Positions 17,248 to 19,498 of a DNA stretch of 64,000 nt are shown piece by piece (the stretch's first letter is position 1; the number at the start of each line of letters is the position of its first letter). Position numbers and translations under genes: made by a program. Below the pieces are notes generated by a model. It was not told where the DNA came from and searched no databases. It saw nothing but the letters and a program-made list of their open reading frames with translations. The stretch is from a bacterium (GTDB taxonomy: Bacteria; Patescibacteriota; CPR2; UBA1875; JAJYID01). Where the stretch lies: contig JAJYLR010000001.1 of NCBI GenBank assembly GCA_021787535.1, forward strand, positions 556,321-620,320. Direction: 5' to 3'.

Positions 17248-17334
17248 TGGTGCCGCGGGGGAGACTCGAACTCCCAATCCGGTTAAGGAACTAGTTCCTA
17301 AGACTAGCGCGTATACCAATTCCGCCACCGCGGC
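17248..17334 (-). tRNA. tRNA-Leu (anticodon UAG), with encoded CCA
   Basis: Reverse complement GCCGCGG...CTAGT-CTTAGGA-ACTAG...GGGAGTTCGAGTCTCCC-CCGCGGC-A-CCA. It has a 7-bp acceptor stem, anticodon loop CU-UAG-GA, a long variable arm and a GTTCGAGTC T-loop. Confidence 0.85.
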
Positions 17335-17432
17335 TAAATGTTGAACTATTCTATCATGTATCCTTACCGAAGTTAAGCATAAAAATCAAGTATTGGTTCC
17401 ATTCAATTACCAAAAAATTATGCAAAGAGAAA

Positions 17433-17454
17433 GGGCGCCTTTATTAAGGCGCCC
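17433..17454. terminator. Hairpin gggcgcctTTATTaaggcgccc flanked by A/T runs
   Basis: 8-bp GC stem. The minus-strand reading is followed by tttctctttgcataatttttt, so it could terminate a minus-strand transcript from the ORF-free region 17460-18300. Confidence 0.45.
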
Positions 17455-18030
17455 AGTTGCGATCAATAAAACGTGGGGAAATAAGAGATCGCAATATTCA
17501 CACAGTGCACTTATTACTTAAATTAATGAGATGACTTTCCCCAAAATCATCTCTTTCATCATAGCTTTTCCGTTTCTGTCTTTTTATCTAAGATGGTCTT
17601 CCATCAAGTGTGAAGCACTTTGACCCTTCAGAGTTGGAGTTATAGAACTCGAGCTCGGATCTAGTATTTACAACACTCTTTAAAAGGTCTTAGCATCGAC
17701 AACTACGGTACTTGCTACGACGGCTACTGATCTTTTCTTTTGCCCCTAACAATCTACCGTCGGCCGGAGTGCAAGTGATTTTGCCTACTCAAGACCGATT
17801 TCGGTCAAGGGAAACTGGCGCAATTCTCTTACAGCTACTCGAGCCCAATTGGTAAAGGGTATGTGACGACAAAAGTACCCAATCAGTAACACTAAATATG
17901 ATACACTAACTTCAAAATTTTGTCAACATTTTTCTGGCTCTCTAACCTTTAGCGTGGTAAATTCGTGCTTACTTGAGCACAAAAAAGTTGTCCGGACAAG
18001 TTTTAGAGTAAATTAATTTTTTTGCGTCTT

Positions 18031-18108
18031 GTCATTCTGGCTTGTCCAGAATCAATTTTTAAGATTTAAGGAAAAGGATTCCGGTCTCCTAATCGTCGCC
18101 AGAATGAC
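18031..18108. repeat. Composite palindromic repeat gtcattctggcttgtccagaatc ... gccagaatgac
   Basis: An inner hairpin attctgg/ccagaat plus an outer inverted repeat gtcattctggc/gccagaatgac 55 nt apart. The same 23-mer recurs at 21171, 55912 and 60215. Confidence 0.65.
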
Positions 18109-18448
18109 AATACTCATAAGATTTATTATTGCCAAGATTTACCACGCTAATCGGCGAAGAGTCCCATTTTTCTGATTTTTTAATTCCCTAAATTAAAAAG
18201 TCCCTTACGAGATCAAAAAACGTTTCGCATTAATTAGTGAAAAATGAAAAACAAACTAGAGTCTTCTTCCTTAGCAACTTACTAGCTTATCAACCATATT
18301 TCTTATTTAAAAGGCGCGGGGTCGCCGCGCCTTTCCGCTCGGATAGCGGCAATCCTGCTTATAAAGATAAGCACATATAAATTACTTATCCACCACCCTT
18401 AGATAAATTTTACAGCCGCCAAAAATCCAAAACAAGTATACAAAAATT

Positions 18449-18480
18449 AGCGGAGACTTACGTAAGTCTCCGCTTTTGTT
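18449..18480. terminator. Bidirectional terminator agcggagacttACGtaagtctccgct + TTTT
   Basis: 11-bp perfect stem with T tracts on both strands, immediately after the stop of the minus-strand 77-aa gene at 18480. Confidence 0.65.
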
Positions 18481-18713
18481 TAGCCATTTTCTGCTTCCTT
18501 GATGATCTCTTCCGGAATGTCCAATTTGTGTTTTTTGCAAAAATCACTTAACGACATTCCCGAATCAGCATCAATCCATATTGCCTCCAAATCAGGACAA
18601 TCATCGATACCCCAGAGGAGTATTTCCAGAACCTTCTCGGCACTTTCTATAGAGATATTCCATTTTTGGCTGGCATACGATGCAAGGGTTGTTTCGTCCA
18701 CCTTCATGCCCAT
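18480..18713 (-). CDS. Hypothetical small acidic protein (77 aa)
   Basis: ORF MGMKVDETTLASYASQKWNISIESAEKVLEILLWGIDDCPDLEAIWIDADSG...; 13-nt spacing to the upstream gene and shared terminator. Confidence 0.5.
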   Translation of the reverse strand: MGMKVDETTLASYASQKWNISIESAEKVLEILLWGIDDCPDLEAIWIDADSGMSLSDFCKKHKLDIPEEIIKEAENG

Positions 18714-18725
18714 TTCGCTTCCCCC

Positions 18726-19382
18726 TTACCCAGTATAGGTTTCGTAAATGTGGTAAGCCATGAGAACCTTGTCCATCCATCTTTCCTTGTGAACATCCTT
18801 TACAAGTTCCTCTAGCATCTCCCAGAGCGTTATGTCGGGAAGAGCGCGGAAATCGTCCTCGCCGATTCTGATACCACCCTTGGTATGCCAGTAGTCCGGC
18901 ACCTGGTAGAACTTCTTCTCTCCGAGAAGGCATGTCTGAATGTTGAAGAAAGACCTGCCTTTTGAGAGATTATATCTCTCGATCGGCTCCTTCATCGACT
19001 CTTCTTCATCCGCCTCGTCGAGAATATTGAACATCGGCCAGATAATACTCTCATCCGAAATGCCAACTTTGCAATAACTATTGTTCCTCTCGTCAATGTT
19101 TTCCACGACAATGAAAGGAACCGTCATGTCATTTGGCATCTGATTCCAGACTTCTTTGCATTTTAAGCAAGGCAGACCCGGCAAATCTCTCTCAAACAGA
19201 TCCGGCGAAAACACAAAGTTGTTGACGCAAGGATTATCTTCAATCCCCAGAGCCGCTTTGGCATGCCGCTTGCAACAAAAAAGCATTTTCCCCATTGGCC
19301 AGGCGCTGCCAACCAAATCGACGCCACAATTTCTATAACCGCACTGTCCCATCGAATGCAAAGCTCTAGCTGCTTCGGTCAT
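18726..19382 (-). CDS. Hypothetical Cys-rich protein (218 aa), putative zinc-binding N-terminus
   Basis: N-terminal CGYRNC...CCKRH...C...C..C cluster. GC-richer than its neighbours. Its own promoter has an extended -10 (TGCTAAAAT, minus strand about 19440). Confidence 0.5.
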   Translation of the reverse strand: MTEAARALHSMGQCGYRNCGVDLVGSAWPMGKMLFCCKRHAKAALGIEDNPCVNNFVFSPDLFERDLPGLPCLKCKEVWNQMPNDMTVPFIVVENIDERNNSYCKVGISDESIIWPMFNILDEADEEESMKEPIERYNLSKGRSFFNIQTCLLGEKKFYQVPDYWHTKGGIRIGEDDFRALPDITLWEMLEELVKDVHKERWMDKVLMAYHIYETYTG

Positions 19383-19498
19383 CTTAGGTCATCCTTTCGA
19401 AAATAAAGGTACAGTTAGCATAAAAGCTCTCAGATTTTAGCATAAAAATATTTTTTCTACTAGCAAGAAGCGGTTGTCTAGAAAAATCATTAAAAAGA

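What the first reader, a model, noticed from the sequence alone, without database searches (positions are those of the whole stretch)
18480..19498. Self-contained two-gene cassette (Cys-rich 218-aa protein + 77-aa acidic protein) with own promoter and terminator, GC-richer than surroundings
The pair has an extended -10 promoter (TGCTAAAAT with upstream direct repeats tagcataaaa x2, about 19420-19450 on the minus strand), a 13-nt intergenic gap and a strong bidirectional terminator at 18449-18474. Composition differs from neighbouring genes. The large protein has an N-terminal multi-Cys cluster (CGYRNC...CCKRH...C..C). The small partner is highly acidic (D/E-rich) and could mimic nucleic acid or neutralise a basic partner. 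The architecture resembles a toxin/immunity or effector/chaperone pair acquired horizontally next to a tRNA.
Basis: partly seen in the sequence, partly recalled or inferred. Interest (0 to 1): 0.6.

Follow-up and report, generated by a model that had tools for sequence, protein, structure and literature searches.

The report
Orphan two-gene zinc-protein operon
This is a real two-gene unit with its own promoter and terminator, encoding a cysteine-rich (probably zinc-binding) protein and a very acidic helical partner; it occurs in only three uncultivated bacterial lineages, matches no known family, and nothing supports the proposed toxin/immunity or tRNA-island reading.

Summary
Two minus-strand ORFs (218 aa, 18726-19382; 77 aa, 18480-18713) lie 12 nt apart. 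They sit between an extended -10 promoter (TGCTAAAAT, 19434-19442) and an 11-bp hairpin terminator (18449-18474).

Both genes are real. Orthologous pairs exist in two other lineages (87% and 77% identity for the large protein), with dN/dS of 0.05-0.07. Promoter, Shine-Dalgarno sites and terminator are conserved, and the terminator stem shows compensatory changes.

The unit is an accessory cassette. Similarity between carriers starts at the promoter and ends at the terminator. Four related genomes or contigs lack it at the syntenic place.

It is not a tRNA island. tRNA-Leu lies 1.1 kb away, behind two conserved RNA loci that non-carriers also have. There is no integrase and no att-like repeat. 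All three copies sit in the same variable stretch downstream of ASCH/GGACT.

Function is unknown. There were no hits in Pfam, NCBIfam, PHROGs, PADLOC, PDB, phages, plasmids, 5.8 billion proteins or 1.84 billion cluster representatives. Both proteins are acidic, so "acidic partner neutralises a basic protein" fails.

Overall GC is unremarkable; only GC3 of the large gene stands out. My best guess is a zinc-finger binding protein with a cognate acidic modulator. Interest is low to moderate.

The parts
19434..19442 (-). Extended -10 promoter element TGCTAAAAT (TG 19442-19441, TAAAAT 19439-19434). There is no canonical -35: TTGCTA at 19466-19461 lies 21 nt upstream.
   Evidence: Read from the sequence. 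It is conserved as TGATACAAT at the same distance from the ATG in L001 and L047, which do have TTGTGC-17 nt-TACAAT. The motif is enriched in the window, 23 copies against 12.8 expected.
19383..19433 (-). 5' leader with a conserved block (CTTTT..GC....TGTACCTTTA) and an AGGA/GGGTGG Shine-Dalgarno. It includes the second copy of the window-specific repeat TTTTATGCTAA (19415-19425).
   Evidence: Three-lineage alignment; repeat family D1.
18726..19382 (-). CDS of 218 aa: acidic (pI 5.0, net -11), rich in Cys and Trp, cytoplasmic. Candidate metal ligands kept in all lineages are C14, C19, C36, C/H37, H40, C52, C72 and C75, plus C151 and H166. Residues 128-175 and the C-terminal amphipathic helix are almost invariant.
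   Evidence: ORF. Orthologues at 87% and 77% identity. dN/dS 0.05-0.07. No family hit. The AlphaFold2 model is unusable, pLDDT 34.
18714..18725 (-). 12-nt spacer carrying the GGGGGA Shine-Dalgarno of the second gene.
   Evidence: L001 has GGAGGTG and L046 has GGGGGTG at the same place.
18480..18713 (-). CDS of 77 aa: very acidic (pI 4.2, net -10), predicted to be five helices. It evolves faster than its partner.
   Evidence: ORF. Partners of 78 and 79 aa follow the large gene in L001 and L046/L047; the L001 partner is 53% identical. dN is 0.42 with synonymous sites saturated. Single-sequence AlphaFold2 gives pLDDT 79 and helices at 7-18, 22-35, 42-50, 55-61 and 68-75. No significant fold match in PDB or BFVD.
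18449..18474 (-). Intrinsic terminator hairpin: 11-bp stem, 4-nt loop, then AATTTTTGT.
   Evidence: The hairpin is kept in L001 and L047 through compensatory changes: GCGGAGAC/GTCTCCGC, GCGGGGAC/GTCCCCGC and GCGCGGGC/GCCCGCGC.

Best explanation
This is a lineage-restricted accessory operon made of two orphan protein families. It is transcribed from its own extended -10 promoter and ended by its own intrinsic terminator. It lies in a fast-changing stretch of the chromosome, downstream of ASCH/GGACT and upstream of tRNA-Leu and the dCMP deaminase gene. It is gained or lost as one promoter-to-terminator unit.

Shown: both genes are protein-coding under strong purifying selection, they always occur together in the same order with conserved translation signals, and related genomes lack them at the syntenic site.

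Inferred: the large protein binds two zinc ions through eight Cys/His ligands in its first 75 residues. These form a small treble-clef or zinc-ribbon-type module of the kind that docks onto nucleic acid or protein. Its nearly invariant C-terminal half would carry the activity. The small, strongly acidic, all-helical protein would be its stoichiometric partner, as modulator, inhibitor or adaptor. The biochemical activity cannot be read from the sequence. A dispensable, niche-specific regulatory or binding module is the most likely kind of function.
For: Coding and selection: dN/dS is 0.05-0.07 in all three pairwise comparisons of the large gene. For the small gene dN is 0.42 with synonymous sites saturated.

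Constant pairing: partners of 78 and 79 aa follow the large gene after 12 nt in L001 and in L046/L047.

Unit boundaries: the window and L001 are alignable only over window 19448-18305. L046/L047 are alignable to L001 only from the -35 region to about 10 nt past the terminator. The -10 element, leader, Shine-Dalgarno sites and terminator are conserved, and the terminator stem shows compensatory changes.

Accessory status: the order PBP-TyrRS-RecG-...-ComEA-(ASCH)-(DNA alkylation repair)-GGACT-[variable]-tRNA-Leu-deaminase-...-Tig-ClpP-NIF3 is largely shared with GCA_027342015.1 and GCA_030647205.1, and its upstream part with GCA_021794535.1 and the Logan contig L044. None of them has the pair there. 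In L003 the GGACT stop codon is directly followed by TTTTGTATACTTG, the sequence that follows the cassette terminator in the window.

Rarity: only three sequence variants exist among 5.8 billion proteins, and nothing credible among 1.84 billion cluster representatives.

Zinc-ligand set: C14, C19, C36, H40, C52, C72 and C75 are invariant, and position 37 is Cys or His. Cys content is four times the window mean.

Partner: most acidic ORF of 53, with a five-helix model at pLDDT 79.
Against: - No structural or homology evidence links either protein to any activity. The AlphaFold2 model of the large protein is useless (pLDDT 34).
- The zinc-finger assignment rests on a Cys/His pattern. No zinc-finger profile in Pfam matches.
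- With 77-87% overall identity, invariance of individual cysteines carries little statistical weight.
- Physical interaction of the two proteins is inferred only from operon structure and co-occurrence.
- Direction of change (gain or repeated loss) is unresolved. The carriers are not each other's closest relatives at flanking genes.
- The persistently high GC3 of the large gene is unexplained.
Confidence: 0.55

Rival explanations
1. Toxin-antitoxin or effector-immunity (addiction or defence) module. The 218-aa protein would be a toxin or effector and the 77-aa acidic protein its neutralising partner. The pair would persist and spread because it is selfish.
For: - Bicistronic unit with its own promoter and terminator and a 12-nt spacer.
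- Patchy presence within one clade, in a variable region.
- The small partner evolves faster than the large one, 53% against 77% identity.
- The partner is very acidic, as many antitoxins are.
Against: - No hit to any toxin, antitoxin or defence model in Pfam, NCBIfam or PADLOC.
- The putative toxin is itself acidic, net -11.
- No recognisable DNA-binding fold in the partner and no conserved operator repeat or palindrome at the promoter.
- Known toxin-antitoxin and defence families are spread widely by transfer. This pair exists in three lineages of one clade and nowhere else: not in phages, plasmids, IMG/VR, JGI metagenomes or GTDB genomes.
- All copies are at the same chromosomal neighbourhood.
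Confidence: 0.15
2. Horizontally acquired genomic islet integrated next to tRNA-Leu.
For: - A tRNA-Leu lies on the same strand 1.1 kb downstream.
- GC3 of the large gene is the highest in the window.
- The relative with the most similar GGACT gene lacks the cassette.
Against: - No integrase, recombinase or transposase in or beside the cassette in any of the three contexts.
- No repeat of the tRNA 3' end.
- A conserved small-RNA locus and a conserved ~470-nt RNA locus lie between the cassette and the tRNA, and non-carriers have them too.
- No donor is detectable in any collection searched.
- Elevated GC3 is kept in all three lineages although synonymous sites are saturated. That pattern does not fit an un-ameliorated recent import.
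- Overall GC is within 1 SD of the window genes.
Confidence: 0.07
3. Anti-restriction or nucleic-acid-mimic proteins. One or both strongly acidic proteins would imitate DNA to block a host or competitor enzyme.
For: The net charge is -0.135 per residue for the small protein and -0.05 for the large one; they rank 1st and 6th most acidic of 53 ORFs. From my own recollection, not checked here, the small protein's value is in the range of known DNA mimics.
Against: - No similarity to ArdA, Ocr or other PHROG or Pfam families.
- No mobile-element context.
- The small protein's model is a compact five-helix bundle with no fold match.
Confidence: 0.05
4. Eukaryote-like RING plus SPRY/B30.2 ubiquitin-ligase mimic with a UBA-like partner.
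For: Sub-threshold matches only:
- Residues 10-43 against the RING of E3 ligase CCNB1IP1, E=1.3.
- Residues 120-172 against the butyrophilin B30.2 domain, E=0.07.
- The partner model against the OTUD7A UBA-like domain, Foldseek E=0.88.
Against: - None of these hits reappears with the 4-sequence family profile or with the L001 orthologue.
- Pfam RING, PRY and SPRY models do not match, even on fragments at E<=10.
- Only about 50 residues follow the putative SPRY motif, and the last 30 look helical. That is too short for a SPRY sandwich.
Confidence: 0.02
5. The ORFs are chance reading frames or decaying pseudogenes in an intergenic region.
For: No homologues outside three lineages. The region is otherwise rich in non-coding DNA.
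Against: - dN/dS is 0.05-0.07 with synonymous sites near saturation.
- Reading frames, start sites and Shine-Dalgarno sequences are conserved in three lineages.
- One copy (L047) has a TAC to TAA change that removes only the last 6 residues.
Confidence: 0.01

Closest known systems
Type II toxin-antitoxin modules with reverse gene order (higBA or mqsRA style)
   Same: Two co-transcribed genes in a self-contained accessory unit. The larger product comes first and a small acidic product second. Distribution among relatives is patchy, and the small partner evolves faster.
   Different: No homology to any toxin or antitoxin family. The large protein is acidic rather than basic. No DNA-binding fold or conserved operator was found. 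There is no sign of wide horizontal spread.
TRASH / FCS / L24e-type treble-clef zinc ribbons (C..C-G ... F-C-x3-C/H)
   Same: By eye, residues 14-44 (C-GYRN-C-G-x15-F-C-C-K-R-H-AKAAL) follow the same outline: a Cys knuckle followed by G, then about 16 residues, then F-C-x3-[C/H] entering a helix. This comparison comes from memory of the motif, not from a test.
   Different: The spacing is 16 rather than 19-22, and the last ligand is His. No Pfam zinc-finger model (YHS, zf-FCS, DUF2116 and others) matches, even on the isolated N-terminus at E<=10. Four further conserved Cys/His residues suggest a second site that the simple TRASH module lacks.
Lineage-specific orphan (ORFan) gene cassettes in flexible regions of small genomes
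   Same: No homologues beyond a narrow clade. The pair lies in a hypervariable interval whose content differs in every relative examined. The genes are short and there are no mobility genes.
   Different: Here both genes are clearly under strong constraint, travel as a fixed pair with conserved expression signals, and the large gene keeps an atypically high GC3.

Membership tests
Type II toxin-antitoxin system | Two adjacent, co-oriented, co-transcribed small genes | tested here: met
   12-nt spacer, a single promoter and a single terminator. The arrangement is conserved in three lineages.
Type II toxin-antitoxin system | Either product belongs to a known toxin or antitoxin family | tested here: not met
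   Pfam, NCBIfam, PADLOC and PHROGs gave no hit. The only near-hit was Sp-DndD, E=0.004 and below its cut-off, and it was absent for the L001 and L046 partners.
Type II toxin-antitoxin system | Antitoxin carries a DNA-binding domain (HTH, RHH or AbrB) and autoregulates through an operator at the promoter | tested here: inconclusive
   The partner model is five helices with no significant fold match. The window's direct repeat at the promoter is not conserved in the orthologous loci.
Type II toxin-antitoxin system | Toxin inhibits growth and the antitoxin neutralises it by direct binding | not testable with these tools
   This needs expression experiments.
tRNA-associated genomic island | Integrase or recombinase gene at one end | tested here: not met
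   No such domain in the neighbours in any of the three contexts.
tRNA-associated genomic island | Insertion directly at the tRNA 3' end, with a direct repeat of that end at the far boundary | tested here: not met
   The tRNA is 1.1 kb away. No repeat of tRNA sequence flanks the cassette. The intervening RNA loci are also present in non-carriers.
tRNA-associated genomic island | Composition deviating from the host genome | tested here: inconclusive
   GC is within 1 SD of the window genes. Only GC3 of the large gene is extreme, and it stays so in all three lineages despite saturated synonymous divergence.
TRASH / FCS-type zinc ribbon | Match to a curated profile (YHS, zf-FCS, TRASH-containing families) | tested here: not met
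   No Pfam hit for the full protein or for residues 1-62 of two orthologues at E<=10.
TRASH / FCS-type zinc ribbon | Conserved Cys/His ligand set C..C ... (F)C-x3-C/H | tested here: met
   C14, C19, C36 and H40 are invariant in all four sequences and F35 precedes C36. This is a pattern match only.
TRASH / FCS-type zinc ribbon | Zinc is bound and the fold is a treble clef | not testable with these tools
   The AlphaFold2 model is unusable (pLDDT 34). Metal analysis or a solved structure is needed.
RING / B30.2 (TRIM-like) E3 ligase | Significant, reproducible match to RING and SPRY/B30.2 domains | tested here: not met
   Single-sequence PDB hits at E=1.3 and E=0.07 vanish with the family profile and with the orthologue. 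No Pfam hit.

The most novel reading that the evidence does not exclude
The pair is the founding example of a new two-protein module, for instance a new toxin-antitoxin-like or anti-defence pair built on an undescribed two-zinc domain. It would be confined to an uncultivated small-genome bacterial clade and selectively retained as a unit in a hypervariable chromosomal hotspot.
Probability: 0.12. Interest if true: 0.5.

Novelty: new variant of a known kind. Interest (0 to 1): 0.3.

Why it matters
If the pair turns out to have a defined activity, it would add two new protein families and possibly a new small zinc-binding domain from a poorly known, uncultivated bacterial lineage. As it stands it is a clean example of a promoter-to-terminator accessory cassette that comes and goes in a flexible chromosomal interval. 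That is useful for annotation and for studying gene turnover in small genomes, but it is not surprising to a specialist. The more unusual material is next to it: two conserved structured non-coding RNA candidates with no Rfam family.

Tried and rejected
Searches and tests that found nothing for the pair:
- Pfam, NCBIfam, PHROGs and PADLOC on both proteins, on fragments, and on the orthologous partners. The one sub-threshold hit, Sp-DndD, was not reproduced.
- Word-indexed search of 5.8 billion proteins, for each protein. Only the pair's own orthologues were found.
- Exhaustive HMMER profile search of 1.84 billion cluster representatives. The only extra hit, P0004, is a tandem-repeat protein scoring over five repeats and I judged it spurious.
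- Pattern plus tblastn scans of GTDB genomes, IMG/VR and JGI metagenomes with the large protein, and tblastn against phage and plasmid records.
- AlphaFold2 of the 218-aa protein with a 2-sequence alignment gave pLDDT 34, which is unusable.
- PDB sequence searches gave weak RING and B30.2 hits. I rejected them after they failed to reappear with the family profile and with the orthologue.

Ideas rejected:
- Target-site duplication: TTAAT..TTTT occurs at both cassette ends and once at the empty site in L003, but this is short and AT-rich, so I treat it as chance.
- Pseudogene remnants of neighbours' genes (DUF2207, CYTH, Metallophos) in the 1-kb ORF-less stretch: no tblastn signal.

Other dead ends:
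- Literature search for the run and assembly accessions returned no papers.
- The organism could not be named.

Full report
**1. What is in the sequence**

On the minus strand there is a 218-aa ORF (18726-19382) and a 77-aa ORF (18480-18713). They are 12 nt apart, not 13. The spacer, gggggaagcgaa, is a strong Shine-Dalgarno.

Upstream lies an extended -10 element, TGCTAAAAT (19434-19442). Downstream lies a hairpin terminator at 18449-18474 with an 11-bp stem, 6 G-C pairs and T-runs on both strands. The 11-nt direct repeat TTAGCATAAAA is present twice, at 19415-19425 and 19437-19447.

The large protein has 9 Cys, 7 of them in the first 75 residues. Its Cys content is 4.1% against a window mean of 1.0%. 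The small protein has pI 4.2 and net charge -10, and is the most acidic per residue of 53 ORFs. The large protein is also acidic (pI 5.0, net -11). This removes the idea of an acidic partner neutralising a basic protein.

The GC claim is weak:
- The cassette is 0.442 against 0.422 for the window.
- The large gene is 0.469, about +1 SD above the window genes.
- The small gene is average.
- Only GC3 of the large gene (0.571) is extreme, the highest of 53 ORFs.

**2. Are they genes?**

Yes. The 5.8-billion-protein search found the large protein only in its own 90% cluster and in one relative at 77% identity. The cluster holds a further variant at 87% identity.

All three variants are followed after 12 nt by a partner of 77-79 aa; the L001 partner is 53% identical to the window's. 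For the large gene dN/dS is 0.05-0.07 in all three comparisons, with synonymous sites near saturation (pS 0.62-0.71). For the small gene dN is 0.42 with synonymous sites saturated.

The -10 element (TGCTAAAAT or TGATACAAT), a leader block, both Shine-Dalgarno sites and the terminator are conserved. The terminator stem shows compensatory changes. The second copy of the direct repeat is not conserved, so I do not treat the repeat as an operator.

**3. Context and distribution**

The window shares gene order with related metagenome-assembled genomes:

PBP - TyrRS - RecG - ... - ComEA - (ASCH) - (DNA alkylation repair) - GGACT - [variable] - tRNA-Leu - dCMP deaminase - ... - trigger factor - ClpP - NIF3

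The comparison loci are GCA_027342015.1 (L003/L004), GCA_021794535.1 (L005/L006), GCA_030647205.1 (L007/L008) and a Logan contig (L044). None of them encodes the pair (tblastn; gene tables).

In L003 the GGACT stop codon is followed directly by TTTTGTATACTTG. In the window the same sequence follows the cassette terminator. The window therefore carries about 1.05 kb extra at this point, and that extra DNA is exactly promoter + two genes + terminator.

The three carriers differ in what flanks the cassette:

| Carrier | Upstream of the cassette | Downstream of the cassette |
|---|---|---|
| Window | GGACT | small-RNA-like element |
| L001 | DUF2207, then a reverse 108-aa ORF | small-RNA-like element, then a gene that I judge CYTH-like by eye |
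| L046/L047 | ASCH, then a 107-aa ORF | reverse 87-aa ORF |

DNA similarity between carriers is confined to the cassette. For the window and L001 it also covers the adjacent small-RNA-like element.

All three contexts nevertheless belong to the same variable interval:
- L001's DUF2207 is 62% identical to the DUF2207 that follows GGACT in L007/L008.
- L047's 107-aa ORF is homologous to the ORF that follows GGACT in L044.

Carriers are not each other's nearest relatives at flanking genes. The GGACT gene most similar to the window's is that of the non-carrier L003. L047's ASCH is closer to that of the non-carrier L044 than to the window's. The pattern therefore needs repeated loss or exchange within the clade.

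There is no integrase or transposase next to any copy and no repeat of the tRNA end. tRNA-Leu (17248-17334) is separated from the cassette by RNA loci that non-carriers also have. The 'island next to a tRNA' reading fails.

**4. What the proteins might be**

Homology and structure gave nothing usable:
- Pfam, NCBIfam, PHROGs and PADLOC: no hits.
- Exhaustive profile search of 1.84 billion cluster representatives: nothing credible.
- Genome, virome, metagenome, phage and plasmid collections: nothing.
- AlphaFold2 failed on the large protein (pLDDT 34).
- The small protein gave a moderately confident five-helix model (pLDDT 79) with no significant fold neighbour.
- Weak single-sequence PDB hits to a RING (E=1.3) and to a B30.2 domain (E=0.07) did not survive the family profile or the orthologue. 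I regard them as chance.

What remains is the pattern of conserved ligands: C14, C19, C36, C/H37, H40, C52, C72 and C75. Eight ligands is enough for two zinc sites. The first four are laid out like a treble-clef or FCS/TRASH-type knuckle. That comparison is from memory; no profile supports it.

**5. Most likely mechanism (inference)**

I propose a dispensable, clade-specific module. A two-zinc N-terminal domain would dock the large protein onto a macromolecular target. Its nearly invariant residues 128-175 and C-terminal helix would provide the activity. The acidic helical protein would be its cognate modulator. A toxin-antitoxin-like or anti-restriction role is possible but unsupported, and I give these about 0.15 and 0.05.

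**6. Novelty and verdict**

The toxin/immunity, charge-neutralisation and tRNA-island parts are not supported.

The protein families are new, but the kind of object is familiar: a lineage-specific orphan bicistronic cassette in a flexible region. Interest is 0.3.

The neighbouring non-coding RNA candidates are arguably more unusual and are listed under Noticed in passing. They are a small RNA conserved in six lineages and a ~470-nt structured RNA (z = -4.85), neither with an Rfam family.

Noticed in passing
window 17425-17895 (minus strand); promoter 17898-17926, terminator 17433-17454; homologue at L003 10612-11078: An ORF-less stretch of about 470 nt lies between a near-consensus promoter (TTGACA-17-TATCAT) and a strong hairpin/T terminator, immediately upstream of tRNA-Leu. 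Its first ~340 nt are about 93% identical to the relative GCA_027342015.1, whereas the neighbouring GGACT CDS is only 79% identical. The MFE is -146 kcal/mol (z = -4.85). Of 134 predicted pairs, 14 changed and none broke. There is no Rfam match even at E<=10. I read it as a candidate new large structured non-coding RNA. Exact-match scans of IMG/VR and JGI metagenomes, and nhmmer on all fetched loci, found no further copies.
   Followed up: partly
window 18305-18445 (minus strand); also L001 3085-3237, L003 10425-10563, L005 2040-2178, L007 13763-13915, L044 9270-9415: A small-RNA-like locus is conserved in six lineages. It has a promoter-like TTTGTATACTTG...TAAAAT or TAAGAT, a variable 5' part, a hairpin GCUUAU..AUAAGC, a second hairpin, and a terminator hairpin. 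Five base pairs show double compensatory changes. It has no Rfam family. It precedes different genes in different genomes (a CYTH-like gene by eye, Metallophos, or the 470-nt RNA). It occurs both with and without the protein pair, so it is independent of the pair.
   Followed up: partly
window 17934-18304, especially 17949-18150: About 370 nt here are absent from the otherwise collinear L003. The stretch contains nested inverted repeats: a perfect 14-nt pair TTAGCGTGGTAAAT / ATTTACCACGCTAA 174 nt apart, and inner 28-nt arms at 82% complementarity. It looks like a MITE or a structured insertion. There is no second copy in the window.
   Followed up: partly
window 18726-19382; L046 155-811; L001 2147-2803: The 218-aa gene keeps GC3 at 0.53-0.57 in all three lineages. 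Neighbouring genes have 0.37-0.45, with one exception: the 87-aa reverse ORF beside the L046 copy is at 0.545. Synonymous sites between the copies are near saturation, so something other than recent import maintains this composition. It is unexplained.
   Followed up: partly
interval between GGACT and tRNA-Leu/dCMP deaminase: window 17335-19498; L003 10421-11160; L005 2043-3390; L007 10442-15373: This interval is a hotspot of gene turnover. Its content differs in every relative: nothing but RNAs; a reverse GGDEF gene with a tandem GAGTCTTGTGAG repeat and a duplicated tRNA 3' end; or DUF2207 plus Metallophos plus small ORFs. Elsewhere the window also carries genes absent from L003, for example OMP decarboxylase and inositol monophosphatase between Tig and the deaminase.
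   Followed up: partly
L047 1680-1690: In one metagenome copy of the large gene, a TAC to TAA change truncates the last 6 residues (212 aa). The ASCH gene upstream on the same contig also has a premature stop. This could be early decay or sequencing error.
   Followed up: no
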